DNA of 54,578 nt from a virus (Duplodnaviria; Caudoviricetes): positions 1 through 54,578 of IMG/VR virus record IMGVR_UViG_3300009180_002134. The stretch is one strand, 5' to 3'. Position 1 is the stretch's first letter. Every line of letters starts with the position of its first letter. Below, piece by piece: positions 2 to 48,548 of the stretch. The notes below the pieces were generated by a model that saw only the letters and a list, made by a program, of their open reading frames with translations, made no database searches and had not been told where the DNA came from. The translations under genes and the position numbers were made by a program.

Positions 2-943
2 AATGATATGATGAACAATCTTAAAAATGGTGGTGATGAGTTTACTAATGATAAGGTTCAGAAAGCTATGGATGGAATGTTAGACAGTAAAGCAGCTAAA
101 GAGATGTTGGAAGAAGCAATTAATGAGGCACAGGATACATGTAAAAGTCTTGATGGTGCAATGTCTGAAGAACAACAAGATCAAATGTTTGAAGCTGCCA
201 ATAAAGGAGGGAATGAAGCCGGTAAGATAGATGGTCAGTTCTTAAACAGAATAGCTAAAGATATTCAGAAAATTAAACTTTCTTTGGGTAATCTTAAAGA
301 AAAGATTAAGAAACTGATGGATAAATCTGCTAGTTATTTTTCTGCTAAAGAAGAAACCACATTTGACGACTTATTCAATTCTGATAACATTGGAGGACTT
401 GATGACTTTATGTTGTTACATCCTAGTCTTAGAAAAATAATGATTGAAGATGTAATGATTAAGGATACTAAGAAAGTGGGTAAGATAGATCTTTATATAG
501 ATATATCAGGCAGTATGGCTTCAGATTGTGGTGTTAAAACAGATGATGGATCTTATATCAGCAAGCTTGATTTCTGTAAATCTTTTGCATATAAGCTTAA
601 GGAGATGGATATGTTGAATGACATCTACACCTTTGAGAATGTAGTAAGAAAGATTGGTAGTGATCTTGTAAGTATTGCAATGATAGATGACAGAGGTGGT
701 ACAGATATTGATAAAGCTGTAGCCAAAGTTGTAAAGAATGGTTTAAATGCTATTATTATTACAGATGCAGAAGATCATTGCTCTATTTATTCTGATAAAG
801 CATTCTTTATCGGTGTGCAGGGATCAAGATTTAGTGGATTCCGTGATGAGGTGATTAAAGAATATTCTGAGAAAGAACAAGTGATTGTATTCAATGGAAC
901 CACCATTAGTAAAGTGGACCAAAGAGGTTTCATAATAAAATAG
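2..943 (+). CDS. vWA (MIDAS) domain protein, 5'-truncated; probable partner of a MoxR-type AAA+ ATPase outside the window
   Basis: LYIDISGSM (DxSxS MIDAS), GGTDI and IIITDAED motifs; frame is open to the window edge (aat gat atg). Confidence 0.8.
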   Translation, partial: NDMMNNLKNGGDEFTNDKVQKAMDGMLDSKAAKEMLEEAINEAQDTCKSLDGAMSEEQQDQMFEAANKGGNEAGKIDGQFLNRIAKDIQKIKLSLGNLKEKIKKLMDKSASYFSAKEETTFDDLFNSDNIGGLDDFMLLHPSLRKIMIEDVMIKDTKKVGKIDLYIDISGSMASDCGVKTDDGSYISKLDFCKSFAYKLKEMDMLNDIYTFENVVRKIGSDLVSIAMIDDRGGTDIDKAVAKVVKNGLNAIIITDAEDHCSIYSDKAFFIGVQGSRFSGFRDEVIKEYSEKEQVIVFNGTTISKVDQRGFIIK

Positions 944-1137: not shown

Positions 1138-2181
1138 TTAATCTCTTAACAATCTTACTGAATATCCACGGGTTTTTATAACATTAGCATTATACACTGC
1201 AGTTCCAGTGTATAATAAATAAAATACGTATGCATTTGTTAGACCAGAAGTTGAAGTCCAGTAATTTGAAGTTTCTGTTATATCTAAAAAATTCTGATAG
1301 TCATCACAACCACCACCACCTAAAGCTGTAAACGCACTACTATTAGTAGCTCCAGTATTTGGAGTTTTCCAATGTGTTAACCCAGTTTCTTTTAATTCTC
1401 CTCCAGCTACTGATCCACCTCCTAAAGTTGTAATTAAAGTTTCCCACTCCGTTTTTGTGGGTACATGATAACCGACAGGAGCTAAACCTCTAGGATCTGT
1501 TACAGCATAATTATTATATAGCTTTCCATAAATTGGACCATTTGCAGAATCATTATTGTAATAACACCATGCACCTGTAGTTGCTAATACCCATTCTGCT
1601 GGATCTGTTATTTCAGGTATAATATCTCCATTTCTGTATCTATCAACATCTAGATTTCTACTAGTCCATTCTTGAGTACCAATTGTTTGTGTAGTACATA
1701 TACTGCATTCACCATCCGTTGACCAAATAGTAGATATAGTTCCTACATCAGCAGGACCAGTTGTTACACTGTCTACATACCAACATTCTGGAGTGTCATT
1801 ACTAACAATAGTTCCTTGAATCAACTCTTGAGTTCCTGTATATCTTATTGTATGATATTCCATTCTTTCACAACCAGCCACTCTATAGTATTGGGCTGTG
1901 TCACAGCATAAATCTACAACCACTTCTTTCCATACACCGTCCTTAGGATATGACTTTCCCACTATTAAACTACCGGGAACTATCTGACCACTTTTAGTAT
2001 ATCTCACCCATCCTTTAGGAGATGCAGTGATTACACCTGGAAGGTCTGTATCACAACAAATATTAGTGGGCACTTCTGTATATAAACCATCAATAGGATA
2101 GCTTCCTGCAGTAAGAATGAGACTTCCTGGTATAAGTCTACCTTGTTTAGTATATTTTACGAATGCACGTTTCTTAGCCAT
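1138..2181 (-). CDS. Putative virion-surface protein: two N-terminal 'PGSLI...CC' repeats plus C-terminal FISUMP (Fib_succ_major) domain
   Basis: IGTQEWTSRNLDV, YGKLYN, GLAPVGYHVPTKTEWETL, YWTS and GYSVRLLRD are FISUMP hallmarks; tandem N-terminal module at aa 1-45 and ~56-95. Confidence 0.8.
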   Translation of the reverse strand: MAKKRAFVKYTKQGRLIPGSLILTAGSYPIDGLYTEVPTNICCDTDLPGVITASPKGWVRYTKSGQIVPGSLIVGKSYPKDGVWKEVVVDLCCDTAQYYRVAGCERMEYHTIRYTGTQELIQGTIVSNDTPECWYVDSVTTGPADVGTISTIWSTDGECSICTTQTIGTQEWTSRNLDVDRYRNGDIIPEITDPAEWVLATTGAWCYYNNDSANGPIYGKLYNNYAVTDPRGLAPVGYHVPTKTEWETLITTLGGGSVAGGELKETGLTHWKTPNTGATNSSAFTALGGGGCDDYQNFLDITETSNYWTSTSGLTNAYVFYLLYTGTAVYNANVIKTRGYSVRLLRD

Positions 2182-2192
2182 TTTATTTTACT

Positions 2193-3182
2193 TTATAAAC
2201 TATTTAAAAATGGTGTTGTTAAATCTGTCCATCCTGATACAGAGTTATATTTTTTAAATGAAGTAACATTTACATATGCATTGTATCCATAATCTACATT
2301 AATAAATGTACCACTGCAATAGAATACATCTACATTAGCTCCTACATTAGCTGCTATAATACCAGATGCTCCTGTTAAGAATGTATCTGATGCCACTCTA
2401 ATATATTCTGTAGCTAGTTTAACACCAGCACCATACTTAGTAGGATCTAATACAAAGTTATAAGGAGCAGAACAAAGTGTAGCTCTATTTGCCCATAGTA
2501 TAGTGGCAAGAGTGAAATACTGATCATTATTAGCAAATACACCAGCTCCTCTCACTGGAGTGGGACCACCAGCTAAATTAGTCATAACCCATTGAGCAGC
2601 TGTAACAACAGCACCACATGTGTTATCTGTCAAAGACTGAGCTTGAGTTTTACCTTTTCTCCACATACGCCCTACATTACCAACTTGTGATATACCTATA
2701 TGAGGCATATTTACTAAGAACAAAGCTCCATTAGCTGTAATATGAGAAGCCCAAGCTTGCAATCCTAACACCCCTGTATGAGGATAACCTGCTAATCCTG
2801 CACCAAAAAATGGTCCAAGAAAACTAGATTGTTGTGCCGAAGTTTGTCCCAAGTTGCCAACAAGCTCAACAGCATTAACATCATCTGAACATACATCTGT
2901 ACTAAGAAGTACATCTTTATAACTGTATCCTTGAGTTTTAATAAACTCTTTAGTAGCTTCAGCAAATCTTAATGCTGATATAGCATCTTCATATTCATCT
3001 TGAACAGTGATGTTGTATGATGTTGGATTAGGTGGAAAAACAGAAGTTGTACAACATAAGTCTGCTGGAACTTCATTCCATGTAGCTGGTCCTTGAGGAA
3101 AACTTCCTGCTGTTAGGATTAAACTACCAGGTACAATCTTGCCTTGCTTACTGTACCTTACAAATGCTCTTTTCTTTGCCAT
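2193..3182 (-). CDS. 'PGSLI...CC' N-terminal module fused to an LCIB/LCIC-family beta-carbonic-anhydrase-like domain
   Basis: VCSDDVN, GPFFGAGLAGYPHTGVLGLQAWASHI, PHIGIS..G..G...R.G, TCGA: Cys/His/Cys zinc-ligand pattern of the LCIB family. Confidence 0.7.
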   Translation of the reverse strand: MAKKRAFVRYSKQGKIVPGSLILTAGSFPQGPATWNEVPADLCCTTSVFPPNPTSYNITVQDEYEDAISALRFAEATKEFIKTQGYSYKDVLLSTDVCSDDVNAVELVGNLGQTSAQQSSFLGPFFGAGLAGYPHTGVLGLQAWASHITANGALFLVNMPHIGISQVGNVGRMWRKGKTQAQSLTDNTCGAVVTAAQWVMTNLAGGPTPVRGAGVFANNDQYFTLATILWANRATLCSAPYNFVLDPTKYGAGVKLATEYIRVASDTFLTGASGIIAANVGANVDVFYCSGTFINVDYGYNAYVNVTSFKKYNSVSGWTDLTTPFLNSL

Positions 3183-3336: not shown

Positions 3337-4023
3337 TTAATCCCACCAAAGGGTAACATTAGAATTTCCTGCTGCAAATTCAAAGTCATAAGATATAAGA
3401 GCTTCAGCTAAATCTGTTGTAGGTACTGATCCATAAGCTTCTAATACAAGACCATAGTTAATTTCTCCTGTAACAGGATCAGCAGGTCCATAACTATACA
3501 TCATCATTTTAACACCATATAATGTATTATACACTGCAGCATCTATATCCCACATTTGAGCACCATCTGCTAAAGGAGTGGTTGTAATATCTAGAGTGGG
3601 ATCATATACATTACCATCTTCTACAGCTGCCACCATTCCTGTTAGTTTACCAGGAAATAAAACAGGGCCTCCAAATATTTCATTAGTAGGTATAATTTTA
3701 ATTGTACCAAGATATTGACTAATTACAGAATTTCCACTATACTGAAGTACTCCTCTCACTCTATAACTATTTACAGTGACAGCTGGAATAAAACCCATAC
3801 CTTGACCACTAGGATATTGATATATAGGACCTGCATCAAATAATGTAGATTCTGGATACCATACAAAAGGATAGTCAAGAGTATGTATTTCTTGATTAGC
3901 TTTATTTTTTTCTACATCATCCACTAATCCATTAAGATGTCCTAATCTAGCAAGACTATTGTCTCCTACTATTTTGTTTAAATAGACTTCTGGACTACGA
4001 GGTTTAAATTTTTTAAGACTCAT
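3337..4023 (-). CDS. Hypothetical virion-associated protein (beta-rich C-terminal domain); start re-called at MSLKKFKPRSPEVYL
   Basis: ATG at 4023 follows an A-rich leader (taaaacaATG); the longer 4074 start overlaps a coupled micro-ORF. Confidence 0.6.
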   Translation of the reverse strand: MSLKKFKPRSPEVYLNKIVGDNSLARLGHLNGLVDDVEKNKANQEIHTLDYPFVWYPESTLFDAGPIYQYPSGQGMGFIPAVTVNSYRVRGVLQYSGNSVISQYLGTIKIIPTNEIFGGPVLFPGKLTGMVAAVEDGNVYDPTLDITTTPLADGAQMWDIDAAVYNTLYGVKMMMYSYGPADPVTGEINYGLVLEAYGSVPTTDLAEALISYDFEFAAGNSNVTLWWD

Positions 4024-4027
4024 TGTT

Positions 4028-4096
4028 TTATTTTTTAGGTTTAGGAACAGCTGGTTTACCACAGCCACATCCATAGTTAAAAATATTTTTTATCAT
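4028..4096 (-). CDS. 22-aa micro-protein MIKNIFNYGCGCGKPAVPKPKK
   Basis: ATG overlaps the TGA of the upstream gene (ATGA); stop 4 nt before the next ATG; GCGCGK motif with basic tail. Confidence 0.55.
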   Translation of the reverse strand: MIKNIFNYGCGCGKPAVPKPKK

Positions 4097-4395
4097 TCTT
4101 TTTTTGTTTTTTCAGTTCCAAAATAATAAGAAAAAATCATCAATGTCAATGTTTTTATTAAATCAAATAATTGATTATTTTGTTCATCAGATAACAAAGC
4201 CATTTTAAATGCAATCACTTTATCAACTATAAAAACACCAACAAGAGCTGCAAATACTAATAAAATAAATCTTACTAATAAATCTTTGGTGTTTGTTGTA
4301 AATAACTTATTAGTAAACCATACACACAATATAACAAATAACAACCCTATAATTACAGCACAAATTTGCTCAAGCTGACTAGGAGAACTAAACAT
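4093..4395 (-). CDS. Holin-like membrane protein (3 TM segments)
   Basis: Three hydrophobic stretches, SYYFG motif and charged C-terminus; TAATG-coupled to the endolysin. Confidence 0.6.
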   Translation of the reverse strand: MFSSPSQLEQICAVIIGLLFVILCVWFTNKLFTTNTKDLLVRFILLVFAALVGVFIVDKVIAFKMALLSDEQNNQLFDLIKTLTLMIFSYYFGTEKTKKE

Positions 4396-4811
4396 TATAT
4401 ACTTTTAAGTTGAAAATGCATTCCATCTTTTCTTTGCCATGTTCCACCCCATTCAAACCCATTGTCTGTAAAACATTTTACAAATCCTGGAGATAATTTT
4501 GGTGTCATATTAAGTCCATTCTCAAATGCATTAAGATCTACAGCTATTCCCCAGCTATGTAAAGACATAGAACCTAAGCCTCTTTTCTTTCTTATATTGA
4601 AACAACCATCCCATGTTTTTAGTTCTTTAACATGTCCTGTTGTAATAAGAGCTTGAATAGCTTTTGCTAATGGTTCAACCATATCTTTGTTACAATAGAT
4701 TTTTTTAGGAATCACTCCTATTTCTAAATATCCTGGAACATCCCATAAGATCATTGCTGATTGTTTATTAGGATCTCCGTATTTCTTTAATGCTTGTGCT
4801 GATGTTACCAT
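4395..4811 (-). CDS. Endolysin, peptidase M15 family (L-Ala-D-Glu peptidase-like)
   Basis: FNIRKKRG...SLHSWGIAVDLN...WGGTWQRKDGMHFQ (SxH, D and H zinc ligands). Confidence 0.88.
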   Translation of the reverse strand: MVTSAQALKKYGDPNKQSAMILWDVPGYLEIGVIPKKIYCNKDMVEPLAKAIQALITTGHVKELKTWDGCFNIRKKRGLGSMSLHSWGIAVDLNAFENGLNMTPKLSPGFVKCFTDNGFEWGGTWQRKDGMHFQLKSI

Positions 4812-5917: not shown

Positions 5918-6595
5918 TTATACTATTATAAGTGTTACAGTATTATTCGTTTGTAAAGTAACTATATTAGGATCTGTAACTAAAGCAGCTGGTAATGTTA
6001 CTGTAATGGTGTTACCAGATATACTATCAAATACAATAGTACCATCCATTGTAATACATTTGTTAATATTAAGAGTCTCTAAAGAAGTGCATCCATTGAA
6101 ACATTCAGTTCCTATATCTATTACACTAGGTAGATTTACGTATCTTAAAGCAGAACAATATCTAAAGTTTTTATCACCACTTAATATAGATTTTGGTAGA
6201 TTTACATACTCTAAACCTGTACATAAACCAAAACTTGCACCACCTGCATCTGTAACTATTCCACCAATATCATTTATACTTAATATACGATTATAATCTA
6301 CAACAGGTGCAAAAATACTACCAAGTGTTAATGTAAAATTAGAACCACCATAGAATCTCTGTGTATCTCCAAGAGTGATCATTGATGTAAAGTTTGAACT
6401 CATGTCAGCATTTGCATCAGAAAGTGTAGGCCAACCATCATTAGTAGCCCCAAATATCACTTCAAAGTATGGTGGATTATCTATTGATGCTTGAGCAATA
6501 GCTTGTGTATTTTTATCTACAGCACAACAAAGTCTTTTCACTCTAGTTGTAAGCCAGTTTAATCTTCCAAATATATCAGAGCTTATGGGATTCAT
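5918..6595 (-). CDS. BspA-type (LRR_5) leucine-rich-repeat protein with short N-terminal helical '..RLCC' module
   Basis: Repeats FGLCTGLEYVNLP / FRYCSALRYVNLPSVIDIGTECFNGCTSLETLNI. Confidence 0.75.
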   Translation of the reverse strand: MNPISSDIFGRLNWLTTRVKRLCCAVDKNTQAIAQASIDNPPYFEVIFGATNDGWPTLSDANADMSSNFTSMITLGDTQRFYGGSNFTLTLGSIFAPVVDYNRILSINDIGGIVTDAGGASFGLCTGLEYVNLPKSILSGDKNFRYCSALRYVNLPSVIDIGTECFNGCTSLETLNINKCITMDGTIVFDSISGNTITVTLPAALVTDPNIVTLQTNNTVTLIIV

Positions 6596-47888: not shown

Positions 47889-48548
47889 TTAACGTACATA
47901 TTCAAATGTATATCCACCCTCTTTTAATTTCTGAAGAAGTTCAGGAGTTGCTTCCATAGTTTGACCCACTACAATACCACCATCTGCATAATTACTTTTA
48001 GAAGTATTTTTTGCAAAGTTAGCTTTTTTAGATGATGGTTTGTTATAAGTTCCACCTTTTGCATATTGATTATCACGATACATCATACCATTATTCATAG
48101 CACCACCATATCCCATATCTCCACCATACATCATAGGAGATTGTTGATTAAAATAACTAGGTTGTTCCATCATTGGTCCACCGTAAGCATACTCACCATA
48201 TGTAGGAACATATGCTCCTCCATAGTTATAATATTGATTACCACTGAATGAACCATCGTCATAAGATCCACCGTAAGCATATGCACCACCATACATCATA
48301 GGAGGTTGTCCTTGTTGAGCCATCATTTGTTGCTGCATTCTAGGATCCATACCACCCTGCTGTTCTTCTTGACCTCCACCTTGTAAAGCTTCAACCATTT
48401 GAGCTAATGCTTGTTGTTGCTGTTCAGGCTTCATCTGCTGAAGTTGTTCAATTATTTTTCTAGGGTCAGTCTGTGTAGCCTGAGCATAAGCTTGTATGAT
48501 TTGCATGATCTGTTCTTGTTGACCACCACCACCTTGTTGATTTTGCAT
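47889..48548 (-). CDS. Low-complexity Q/M/G/Y-rich protein with YGG repeats
   Basis: Gln-rich N-terminal half, about 8 xGG motifs, C-terminal EATPELLQKLKEGGYTFE. Confidence 0.75.
   Translation of the reverse strand: MQNQQGGGGQQEQIMQIIQAYAQATQTDPRKIIEQLQQMKPEQQQQALAQMVEALQGGGQEEQQGGMDPRMQQQMMAQQGQPPMMYGGAYAYGGSYDDGSFSGNQYYNYGGAYVPTYGEYAYGGPMMEQPSYFNQQSPMMYGGDMGYGGAMNNGMMYRDNQYAKGGTYNKPSSKKANFAKNTSKSNYADGGIVVGQTMEATPELLQKLKEGGYTFEYVR

What the first reader, a model, noticed from the sequence alone, without database searches (positions are those of the whole stretch)
2193..3182. LCIB-type beta-carbonic-anhydrase-like domain fused to a probable virion-anchoring module
Seen: C-S-D-D...GLAGYPHTG...PHIG...CGA, in a gene that starts with the same ~45-aa module as the neighbouring FISUMP protein and lies in the late block. 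Known: LCIB/LCIC proteins (algal CO2-concentrating mechanism, with bacterial homologues) have a beta-CA fold with Cys/His/Cys zinc ligands. Inference: this may be a capsid-displayed or structurally repurposed carbonic anhydrase rather than an ordinary auxiliary metabolic gene. I do not recall this architecture being described in a phage.
Basis: partly seen in the sequence, partly recalled or inferred. Interest (0 to 1): 0.85.

Follow-up and report, generated by a model that had tools for sequence, protein, structure and literature searches.

The report
Phage carbonic anhydrase on a fibre adaptor
An uncultured crAss-like phage encodes a complete LCIB-type carbonic anhydrase joined to a short N-terminal adaptor that related phages put on fibre-like, adhesin-like proteins, so the enzyme may ride on the virus particle, which has not been described before.

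Summary
ORF 2193-3182(-) encodes 329 aa. Residues 54-326 are a full LCIB/theta-type beta-carbonic-anhydrase domain: Pfam PF18599 E 5.4e-25 and Z 27.3, rmsd 2.1 A to PtLCIB4. The zinc ligands C98/H161/C189, plus D100, H147 and R175, are conserved.

Residues 1-46 are a small module. In this window it recurs only, twice, at the start of the neighbouring FISUMP protein.

The family is phage-specific and widespread, with 335 protein clusters and 71 IMG/VR loci. The phages are crAss-like.

In 123 of 123 other proteins examined, the same module sits at the extreme N-terminus and ends in Cys-Cys. It is followed by poly-Thr/Ser stalks, lectin-like or LRR domains.

In other phage lineages the LCIB domain carries two different N-terminal adaptors. 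Each of these is also shared with other proteins of its own lineage.

This pattern argues for a virion-anchoring adaptor. However, attachment, enzyme activity and biological role are all unproven, and an intracellular auxiliary enzyme remains a serious rival. No paper describing this was found.

The parts
2193..3182 (-). Whole gene, 329 aa: N-terminal adaptor module + linker + LCIB-type carbonic anhydrase domain
   Evidence: ORF list. 335 homologous protein clusters; all 120 listed carry PF18599. dN/dS against 6 close relatives is 0.08-0.39.
3045..3182 (-). N-terminal adaptor module, aa 1-46 (three short beta strands; conserved VPGSL turn; ends in Cys-Cys at aa 43-44)
   Evidence: Module HMM. 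Alignment A2 of 30 modules. pLDDT 77-86 in the second model. The same module heads 123 of 123 unrelated small proteins.
3033..3062 (-). Flexible linker, aa 41-50
   Evidence: The only low-confidence stretch of the deep-alignment model: block mean pLDDT 59, residues 42-44 below 50.
2205..3023 (-). LCIB/theta-type beta-carbonic-anhydrase domain, aa 54-326
   Evidence: VIA-align Z 27.3, rmsd 2.1 A, 238 of 241 residues of 5b5y_B aligned, model range 54-326. Foldseek E 1.4e-13. Pfam PF18599.
2889..2891 (-). Cys98, predicted zinc ligand (aligned with PtLCIB4 Cys46)
   Evidence: Alignment. Invariant in 81 sequences. Present in 119 of 120 close relatives.
2883..2885 (-). Asp100, catalytic Asp next to the zinc (aligned with PtLCIB4 Asp48). 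Ser99 before it aligns with Ser47.
   Evidence: the wild-type chain and the S47R mutant chain differ at this column. Invariant.
2742..2744 (-). His147 (aligned with PtLCIB4 His88)
   Evidence: Numbering derived from the chains. Invariant.
2700..2702 (-). His161, predicted zinc ligand (aligned with PtLCIB4 His102)
2658..2660 (-). Arg175, invariant arginine of the family
   Evidence: Invariant in 81 sequences. A review names a His and an Arg as important active-site residues of LCIB; their equivalence to H147 and R175 is inferred here.
2616..2618 (-). Cys189, predicted zinc ligand (aligned with PtLCIB4 Cys126)
1138..2181 (-). Neighbouring gene, 347 aa: two tandem copies of the same module (aa 1-45 and 53-95) + FISUMP domain (aa 167-346). 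Its start lies 11 nt after the LCIB stop.
4395..4811 (-). Upstream M15 peptidase (endolysin-like) in the same-strand run
   Evidence: PF13539 E 6.4e-15. PHROG endolysin families.

Best explanation
The gene encodes a two-part protein of a crAss-like phage.

Shown:
- Residues 54-326 are a complete LCIB/theta-type beta-carbonic-anhydrase domain.
- Every residue that aligns with the zinc site and catalytic set of the active diatom enzyme PtLCIB4 is kept under purifying selection.
- Residues 1-46 are a small, separately folding module joined by a flexible linker.
- The same module sits at the extreme N-terminus of a set of other phage proteins. Their remainders are poly-Thr/Ser stalks, Cys-rich knobs, lectin-like (FISUMP, Lcl_C) or BspA-type LRR domains.

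Inferred:
- The module is an adaptor that docks these proteins into a conserved socket of the virion (head or tail). This is how the N-terminal 26-58 residues of the phiCrAss001 head and tail fibres work.
- The particle would then carry a zinc enzyme that interconverts CO2 and bicarbonate outside the cell. It would act at the particle or host surface, or after lysis.
- The enzyme was probably captured from a bacterial (possibly Bacteroidota) cytoplasmic homologue. It was then joined to whichever adaptor each phage lineage uses.
For: Domain identity:
- Pfam 88.4 bits.
- phmmer to 6kfs at 4.7e-13 and to PtLCIB4 at 1.5e-11.
- Z 27.3 over 238 of 241 residues. Canonical beta-CAs reach only Z 10-13.
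- The second model has mean pLDDT 91.3.

Active site:
- C98, D100, H147, H161, R175 and C189 are invariant in 81 phage and bacterial sequences.
- The full set is present in 119 of 120 close relatives.

Selection: dN/dS is 0.17-0.39 for the domain and 0.08-0.24 for the module.

Adaptor logic:
- 66 of 71 related LCIB genes carry the module. 26 further ORFs in 19 of those loci carry it on other bodies of 67-627 aa.
- In 123 of 123 database proteins the module starts at residue 1-4 and ends in CC.
- Median module identity is 97% across 34 unrelated C-terminal types, many of them poly-Thr/Ser.
- Fusions to Lcl_C and LRR_5 also occur.
- Complete genomes hold 2-3 module proteins each.

Independent repeats of the pattern:
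- In other phage lineages the LCIB domain is fused to a type-C N-terminus. That N-terminus also heads 22 Gly/Ser/Thr-repeat proteins of 85-814 aa.
- It is also fused to a type-B domain of about 65 aa, which also heads proteins of 75-910 aa.

Position:
- In 30 of 71 loci a crass-type capsid gene lies 1.6-8.1 kb upstream on the same strand.
- In the type-C lineage the gene lies between a major head gene and a head-tail adaptor gene.

Precedent: in phiCrAss001, gp21 residues 1-38 and gp29 residues 1-58 bind capsid pockets, and gp22 residues 1-26 dock in the tail hub. The authors expect unknown analogues in other crassviruses (passages read, PMC10172136).
Against: - No virion data exist. No cultured phage carries the module or the enzyme.
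- The module has no detectable sequence relative among solved structures, including phiCrAss001 fibres (0 hits at E <= 10).
- In the window's own lineage, and in two complete genomes, the gene is 30-60 kb from the capsid gene. In the window it follows lysis genes.
- The bacterial relatives have no signal peptide, so the domain comes from a cytoplasmic enzyme.
- Some LCIB proteins with all ligands lack in-vitro activity (review passage).
- The LCIB-linked modules are more diverged than the fibre modules. In the 315-aa lineage they lack the Cys-Cys.
- Some representatives of the phage-type clade have almost no N-terminal extension, for example 283-299 aa. Whether these are viral is unknown: one tested, P0254, had no viral locus.
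Confidence: 0.5

Rival explanations
1. It is an ordinary intracellular auxiliary metabolic enzyme. The carbonic anhydrase works in the infected cytoplasm late in infection. It would supply bicarbonate for carboxylations (nucleotide and lipid synthesis) or buffer pH. The N-terminal module would be an oligomerisation or regulatory tag rather than a virion anchor.
For: - The catalytic set is intact and conserved.
- The nearest non-phage relatives are standalone proteins of 226-275 aa without signal peptides. One is from a Chitinophagaceae MAG, on contigs up to 383-507 kb.
- Viral carbonic anhydrases of other classes are reported as auxiliary genes (abstract and passages of bioRxiv 10.64898/2026.01.21.700432; giant-virus CAs in BFVD).
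- In the window the gene sits beside lysis genes, not structural genes.
Against: - It does not explain why three unrelated N-terminal adaptors, each shared with stalk-like, lectin-like or LRR proteins, are fused to this one enzyme in different phage lineages.
- It does not explain why the module is 97% conserved across unrelated bodies.
Confidence: 0.3
2. It is a repurposed, non-catalytic domain. The LCIB fold would serve as a binding or structural tip of a fibre (a receptor- or surface-binding knob), with the zinc site kept for stability only.
For: - It shares its adaptor with binding-type domains: FISUMP, Lcl_C and LRR.
- 2 of 150 family representatives have lost all three ligands while keeping the fold. 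One of them (P0267, 549 aa) carries the module.
- Algal LCIB/LCIC lack measurable activity in vitro (review passage).
Against: - The ligands, and also the non-ligand catalytic residues D100, H147 and R175, are invariant. The full set is present in 119 of 120 close relatives.
- Ser99 matches the residue of the PtLCIB4 wild type rather than the S47R mutant chain. That the wild type is active comes from the review passage; the effect of S47R is recalled only.
Confidence: 0.13
3. It is an enzyme with a different small-molecule substrate. The beta-CA fold also includes carbonyl sulfide and carbon disulfide hydrolases.
For: - A phage-clade-specific His135 replaces the Phe of cellular LCIBs in the GLAG(F/Y)P(F/H) motif near the active-site sequence.
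- COS and CS2 hydrolases share the fold (Z about 7).
Against: Similarity to LCIB enzymes is far higher (Z 27 against 7). No feature specific to COS or CS2 hydrolases was found or tested.
Confidence: 0.05

Closest known systems
PtLCIB4 / LCIB-LCIC family (theta-type, a subgroup of beta-carbonic anhydrases; PDB 5b5y, 6kfs, 5k5w)
   Same: - Same fold over the whole domain: Z 27.3, rmsd 2.1 A.
- Pfam PF18599.
- Cys/His/Cys ligands, Asp, His88-equivalent and Ser47-equivalent lie in the same columns.
   Different: - About 23% identity.
- Encoded by a phage.
- Carries a 46-aa N-terminal adaptor and linker.
- The C-terminal half is too diverged for the Pfam model: only profile positions 5-127 of 223 match.
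- His135 stands where cellular members have Phe.
- The phage proteins form their own clade on a long stem: 27 rows, support 100.
Head fibres gp21 and gp29, and tail fibre gp22, of phiCrAss001 (PMC10172136)
   Same: - Host phage is of crass type.
- A short N-terminal segment (26-58 residues in phiCrAss001, 40-46 here) is followed by a variable distal domain.
- There are two or three such proteins per genome, several under 150 aa.
   Different: - No sequence similarity was detected.
- No crAss_AuxCP family match in 5 related genomes.
- Attachment is not shown.
- The distal domain here is an enzyme fold, not a small binding domain.
Viral carbonic anhydrases reported as auxiliary genes (alpha, beta and gamma classes in virome studies; giant-virus CAs)
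   Same: A virus-encoded carbonic anhydrase with conserved active-site residues.
   Different: - Those are canonical classes without adaptor fusions. The best BFVD matches to this model are weak: E 0.04, TM 0.32.
- No LCIB-type viral enzyme was found in print.
Bacterial standalone LCIB homologues (for example a Chitinophagaceae MAG protein, 265 aa)
   Same: Same domain and ligand set. 32% identity over 152 aa, E 2e-17. Tentative sister group in the tree, support 83.
   Different: No N-terminal adaptor and no extension. They lie on large cellular contigs.

Membership tests
LCIB/LCIC (theta-type beta-carbonic anhydrase, Pfam PF18599) | Profile match above the curated cut-off | tested here: met
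   88.4 bits against a cut-off of 25, E 5.4e-25, aa 71-204. Relatives with other N-termini match profile positions 7-220 of 223.
LCIB/LCIC (theta-type beta-carbonic anhydrase, Pfam PF18599) | Whole-domain fold of solved LCIB structures | tested here: met
   Z 27.3, rmsd 2.1 A, 238 of 241 residues of 5b5y_B. 6kfs also gives Z 27.3, and CrLCIB gives Z 20.7. The model has pLDDT 91.3.
LCIB/LCIC (theta-type beta-carbonic anhydrase, Pfam PF18599) | Zinc ligands Cys-His-Cys | tested here: met
   By alignment only: C98, H161 and C189 lie in the columns of PtLCIB4 C46, H102 and C126. The numbering was derived from the S47R and H88A mutant chains; that these residues are the ligands is recalled, because the primary paper is not held. 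Invariant. Distances in the model could not be measured because no coordinates are given.
LCIB/LCIC (theta-type beta-carbonic anhydrase, Pfam PF18599) | Catalytic Asp after the first Cys, plus the conserved His and Arg | tested here: met
   D100, H147 and R175 are invariant in 81 sequences.
LCIB/LCIC (theta-type beta-carbonic anhydrase, Pfam PF18599) | CO2-hydration activity and bound zinc | not testable with these tools
   Needs purified protein. Some family members are inactive in vitro.
LCIB/LCIC (theta-type beta-carbonic anhydrase, Pfam PF18599) | Dimer as the basic unit | not tested
Crassvirus fibre proteins with an N-terminal virion-docking segment (phiCrAss001 gp21, gp29, gp22) | Short conserved N-terminal segment followed by exchangeable distal domains, several per genome | tested here: met
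Crassvirus fibre proteins with an N-terminal virion-docking segment (phiCrAss001 gp21, gp29, gp22) | Sequence relationship to gp21, gp29 or gp22 | tested here: inconclusive
   A profile of 30 modules against all PDB chains gave 0 hits at E <= 10. Such short, fast-evolving segments may be undetectable.
Crassvirus fibre proteins with an N-terminal virion-docking segment (phiCrAss001 gp21, gp29, gp22) | Physical presence on the virion, docked in a capsid pocket or tail hub | not testable with these tools
   No cultured relative.
Crassvirus (phage with Crass_capsid major capsid protein) | Major capsid protein of family PF23898 | tested here: met
   Not in the window itself, which is 41% complete. 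Found in a close relative's record (G002, LCIB 82% identical, partial match E 6e-10), in two complete related genomes (E about 1e-28), and in L015 (E 1.7e-31).
Auxiliary metabolic gene | Host-derived metabolic enzyme acting inside the infected cell | tested here: inconclusive
   Bacterial standalone relatives exist and are a tentative sister group. The place of action is untestable here.

The most novel reading that the evidence does not exclude
A widespread group of uncultured crAss-like phages, and at least two other phage lineages with their own adaptors, display an active zinc carbonic anhydrase on the outside of the virion, on head or tail fibres. Each particle would then change CO2/bicarbonate/proton chemistry in the boundary layer where it meets its host or a surface. 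This would be the first virion-borne enzyme of inorganic-carbon chemistry, and a new class of fibre 'tip' that is catalytic towards a dissolved gas rather than towards a polymer.
Probability: 0.33. Interest if true: 0.85.

Novelty: new variant of a known kind. Interest (0 to 1): 0.66.

Why it matters
- LCIB-type carbonic anhydrases are known from algal CO2-concentrating mechanisms and from a few bacteria, not from viruses.
- Here a phage-specific clade of them is abundant in metagenomes.
- It keeps its active site.
- It is repeatedly joined to lineage-specific N-terminal adaptors that otherwise carry stalks and adhesin-like domains.

If the adaptor docks to the virion, phage particles would carry an enzyme that acts on dissolved CO2. 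That is a new idea for how phages condition the micro-environment of adsorption or persistence.

If the adaptor does not dock to the virion, this is still a new type of viral auxiliary gene bearing on bicarbonate supply during infection.

Either way, the roughly 45-aa module defines a previously unnamed family of modular phage proteins. It is a practical handle for finding fibre or decoration proteins in environmental crassviruses.

Tried and rejected
- **Cultured phages.** tblastn of the protein and megablast of 12 kb against 50,697 phage records gave no match. tblastn of a small module protein gave no match. The FISUMP neighbour matched 5 records, through its FISUMP domain only.
- **PHROGs.** No family matched the LCIB protein, the FISUMP protein, the 245-aa neighbour, or ten other-N-terminus relatives.
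- **Module against structures and libraries.** The module profile against PDB gave 0 hits at E <= 10. The ESM Atlas with the module gave no usable hit. With a 141-aa module protein it gave only leads below 0.9.
- **The 338-aa genes c5 and c24 upstream of module genes.** I suspected an auxiliary capsid protein.
  - They are not related to each other (hhalign probability 2%).
  - Neither matches PDB alone or as a profile.
  - The crAss_AuxCP family was not found in 5 related genomes (the control genomes did not ring either, so absence is not shown).
  - I therefore make no claim about them.
- **Complex prediction.** A job with capsid protein + c5 + module (aa 1-48) gave 'no answer', score 0.00. 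This is neither for nor against binding.
- **First structure model.** The 26-row alignment left aa 95-136 below pLDDT 50. This was resolved with an 81-row alignment.
- **Type-C N-terminus.** tblastn against cultured phages gave one weak hit, E 8e-3. PHROGs on seven proteins that carry it gave only families of unknown function. Their fibre nature therefore rests on their Gly/Ser/Thr repeat pattern alone.
- **Repeats, tRNAs, promoters.** No direct DNA repeats hinting at a diversity-generating retroelement near the FISUMP gene. No tRNAs. The sigma-70 promoter and terminator scan was no better than shuffles.
- **Bacterial genomes.** Only 1 relative was found in one-genome-per-species of 185,579 species, on a 1.5-kb MAG contig.
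- **Tools and papers not available.**
  - The look-up of sequencing runs could not be reached in four tries, so expression was not examined.
  - The primary LCIB structure paper is not held.
The virion proteomics tables of the phiCrAss001 paper could bear on fibre nomenclature only.
Full report
**What is there.** The window is an IMG/VR virus record of 54,578 bases, judged 41% complete. ORF 2193-3182 on the minus strand encodes 329 aa.
- CSDD at aa 98-101
- GLAGYPHTG at aa 129-137
- PHIG at aa 160-163
- CGA at aa 189-191

The first 46 residues are 64% identical to the first 45 residues of the next gene (1138-2181, minus strand). They are 53% identical to a second copy at that protein's residues 53-95. 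That neighbour ends in a FISUMP domain (PF09603, E 6e-36). A profile of the module finds only these three copies among all window ORFs; the next best E-value is 0.33.

**The enzyme domain.**
- Pfam LCIB_C_CA matches at 88.4 bits against a cut-off of 25. It covers only profile positions 5-127 of 223.
- phmmer finds the solved LCIB proteins: 6kfs at 4.7e-13 and PtLCIB4 at 1.5e-11.
- A first AlphaFold model from 26 phage sequences was poor around the active site. It still matched LCIB structures by Foldseek, with E 1.4e-13 over 277 columns.
- A second model, from 81 phage and bacterial sequences, has mean pLDDT 91.3.
- That model aligns to PtLCIB4 with Z 27.3 and rmsd 2.1 A, covering 238 of 241 residues over model residues 54-326.
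- For comparison, canonical beta-carbonic anhydrases give Z 10-13, and COS/CS2 hydrolases give about 7.
- The C-terminal half therefore belongs to the same domain. Relatives match the Pfam profile almost end to end.

**The active site.** The PDB chains of the S47R and H88A mutants fix the PtLCIB4 numbering in the alignment. Under that numbering:
- C98, S99 and D100 of the phage protein stand at C46, S47 and D48.
- H147 stands at H88.
- H161 stands at H102.
- C189 stands at C126.

That C46, H102 and C126 bind zinc is my recollection of the primary paper, which is not held. A review confirms two Cys and one His as the beta-class pattern, and names a His and an Arg as important in LCIB (passages).

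C98, D100, H147, H161, R175 and C189 are invariant in the 81-row alignment. The full set occurs in 119 of 120 close relatives; the remaining one has Ser at position 98. Among 150 cluster representatives, 2 have lost all three ligands. One of these carries the module and is 549 aa long.

Activity is inferred, not shown. Algal LCIB/LCIC have the same site but no measured in-vitro activity, whereas the diatom homologues PtLCIB3 and PtLCIB4 are described as constitutively active (passage).

**Distribution and origin.**
- The word-indexed search gave 335 protein clusters at E <= 1e-3 among 3,594 candidates. All 120 listed carry PF18599, and several lie on contigs of 95-127 kb.
- The IMG/VR scan gave 71 loci.
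- The exhaustive profile search gave 885 representatives at E <= 1e-3, 384 at <= 1e-10 and 34 at <= 1e-30.
- One relative was found among one-genome-per-species of 185,579 species, on a 1.5-kb MAG contig. None was found in 50,697 deposited phage records.
- A FastTree of 144 of 152 rows was built. I dropped 8 rows whose domain match spanned fewer than 140 profile positions. It puts the phage-type proteins in one clade of 27 rows, with support 100 and stem length 1.02.
- That clade is tentatively sister (support 83, midpoint root only) to a small group that includes a Chitinophagaceae MAG protein. That protein is 32% identical to the window protein over 152 aa.
- The bacterial relatives start directly with the domain and have no signal peptide.

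**What kind of phage.**
- Related loci encode a portal (phrog_6547) and a Crass_capsid major capsid protein (PF23898, E 1.7e-31).
- The same family is found in two complete related genomes of 113.6 and 117.0 kb. It is also found, cut by the contig end, in the record of a close relative whose LCIB is 82% identical.
- The window itself holds:
  - replication genes on the plus strand: helicase, primase, exonuclease and a family-A polymerase;
  - six giant minus-strand ORFs of 767-4,490 aa, one with an M23 peptidase domain;
  - the minus-strand run 6918-1138, containing an LRR protein, small ORFs, an M15 peptidase, a 245-aa protein, the LCIB protein and the FISUMP protein.

**The N-terminal module.**
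- Of the 71 related LCIB genes, 66 carry the module, 4 carry a different N-terminus (type C, see below), and 1 is cut by the contig end.
- A further 26 ORFs in 19 loci carry the module on other bodies of 67-627 aa. One of these is a BspA-type LRR protein.
- A database search with a 141-aa module protein gave 374 proteins of 77-247 aa. Many share only the first 48 or so residues, at 84-92% identity.
- The search for longer proteins gave fusions to Lcl_C and LRR_5.
- In all 123 proteins retrieved by those two searches, the module begins at residue 1-4 and ends in Cys-Cys.
- After the Cys-Cys come 34 unrelated C-terminal types, many of them simply poly-Thr/Ser tracts. Median module identity between types is 97%.
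- Complete genomes hold two or three module proteins each.
- In the model the module is a three-strand unit (pLDDT 77-86), joined by a low-confidence linker at residues 41-50.
- Both parts are under purifying selection against six close relatives: dN/dS 0.08-0.24 for the module and 0.17-0.39 for the domain. I left out L005 (same as L003), L006 (uncertain start) and L010 (truncated).
- Synonymous divergence differs between the two parts, which hints at recombination between them. The module is only 45 codons, so this is weak.

**The same logic with other adaptors.**
- Type C: in a second lineage the LCIB domain follows a conserved N-terminus of about 30 residues. This N-terminus also heads 22 other viral proteins of 85-814 aa that continue with Gly/Ser/Thr-rich repeats. 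There the gene lies between a major head gene (phrog_138) and a head-tail adaptor gene (phrog_211).
- Type B: in a third group (26 + 23 viral loci, on contigs up to 272 kb) the LCIB domain follows a beta-rich domain of about 65 aa. This domain also heads proteins of 75, 86, 127, 132 and 910 aa in the same loci.

Three unrelated N-terminal pieces, each shared with other proteins of its own phage lineage, are thus attached to one enzyme domain. This is the architecture expected of virion appendage proteins: a lineage-specific docking end and an exchangeable distal end.

**Gene position is mixed evidence.**
- In 30 of 71 loci the crass-type capsid gene ends 1.6-8.1 kb upstream on the same strand. 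A 'virion structural protein' family (phrog_29507) lies downstream.
- In 15 loci a 338-aa gene of unknown function lies upstream.
- In 4 loci and the window an M15 peptidase lies upstream.
- 22 loci show none of these.
- In two complete genomes, and in the close relative, the gene is 30-60 kb from the capsid gene.

**Precedent.** In phiCrAss001, head fibre gp21 binds a hexon pocket with residues 1-38, and gp29 does so with residues 1-58. Tail fibre gp22 docks with residues 1-26. The authors note that most crassvirus groups lack homologues, and that uncharacterised proteins may play these roles (passages read, PMC10172136). I found no sequence link between the module and any solved chain, so this is an analogy, not membership.

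**Verdict.**
- The LCIB-type carbonic anhydrase fused to a shared N-terminal module is real, conserved and phage-specific.
- The most likely reading (about 0.5) is a virion-docked fibre-type protein whose distal domain is an active carbonic anhydrase.
- An intracellular auxiliary enzyme (about 0.3) and a non-catalytic binding tip (about 0.13) remain open.
- Searches of the held literature found no description of a phage LCIB or of a virion-borne carbonic anhydrase: 'LCIB' with 'phage'; the Pfam name; 'carbonic anhydrase' with bacteriophage and auxiliary metabolic; with crAss-like; and with virion and capsid decoration.
- One preprint reports alpha, beta and gamma class enzymes in viral contigs, without LCIB.

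Noticed in passing
window 1138-2181 (-): The FISUMP protein carries the adaptor module twice in tandem (aa 1-45 and 53-95). Each copy ends in Cys-Cys. Only 4 of 123 other module proteins have two copies.
   Followed up: partly
L055:6576-7592, L058:5784-6800 and 13 other loci: A conserved 338-aa gene (phrog_4417, unknown function) lies immediately upstream of the small module + poly-Thr/Ser proteins. By eye it has a DxD-like 'CDCD' motif, so it may be a glycosyltransferase. That would suggest glycosylated stalks. No Pfam or PDB match.
   Followed up: partly
proteins P0267 and P0283 (one search hits): A sub-branch of the module-bearing LCIB clade has lost all three zinc ligands (Pro, Ala/Gly and Asn in their place) and grown to about 540 aa. 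This is a likely pseudo-enzyme derivative.
   Followed up: partly
window 2778-2780 (-), His135: In the GLAG(F/Y)P(F/H) motif, the clade nearest the window protein has His where cellular LCIBs, and part of the phage clade, have Phe. Its position relative to the zinc could not be measured.
   Followed up: no
window 19063-54578 (-): Six consecutive giant ORFs of 2,194, 4,490, 1,055, 1,833, 1,214 and 767+ aa. Only an M23 peptidase domain (in the 1,833-aa protein) and an L-Ala-D-Glu peptidase-like stretch (in the 767-aa protein) were recognised. The 4,490-aa ORF was not scanned. They are reminiscent of crassvirus cargo or virion RNA polymerase blocks (recalled, not tested).
   Followed up: partly
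window 3045-3182 against 2205-3023 (-), compared with L002-L009: Synonymous divergence of the module and of the enzyme domain differ up to threefold, in either direction, between the same pairs of genomes. This hints at recombination at the linker.
   Followed up: partly
window 5918-6595 (-): A BspA-type LRR protein (PF13306, E 7.3e-10) without the module in this window. Relatives have module + LRR fusions (L008 400 aa; P0242, P0243).
   Followed up: partly
window 3337-4074 (-): A 245-aa protein with no family match. It travels with the LCIB gene in 14 loci, sometimes upstream and sometimes downstream.
   Followed up: no
window 47889-48548 (-): A weak ThylakoidFormat match below the cut-off (21.4 against 27 bits). 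Probably chance. Noted only because of the carbon-concentrating theme.
   Followed up: no
window 8-943 (+): A 311-aa ORF convergent with the FISUMP gene. By eye it contains a D-x-S-x-S stretch like a VWA metal-site motif. No Pfam match above the cut-off.
   Followed up: no
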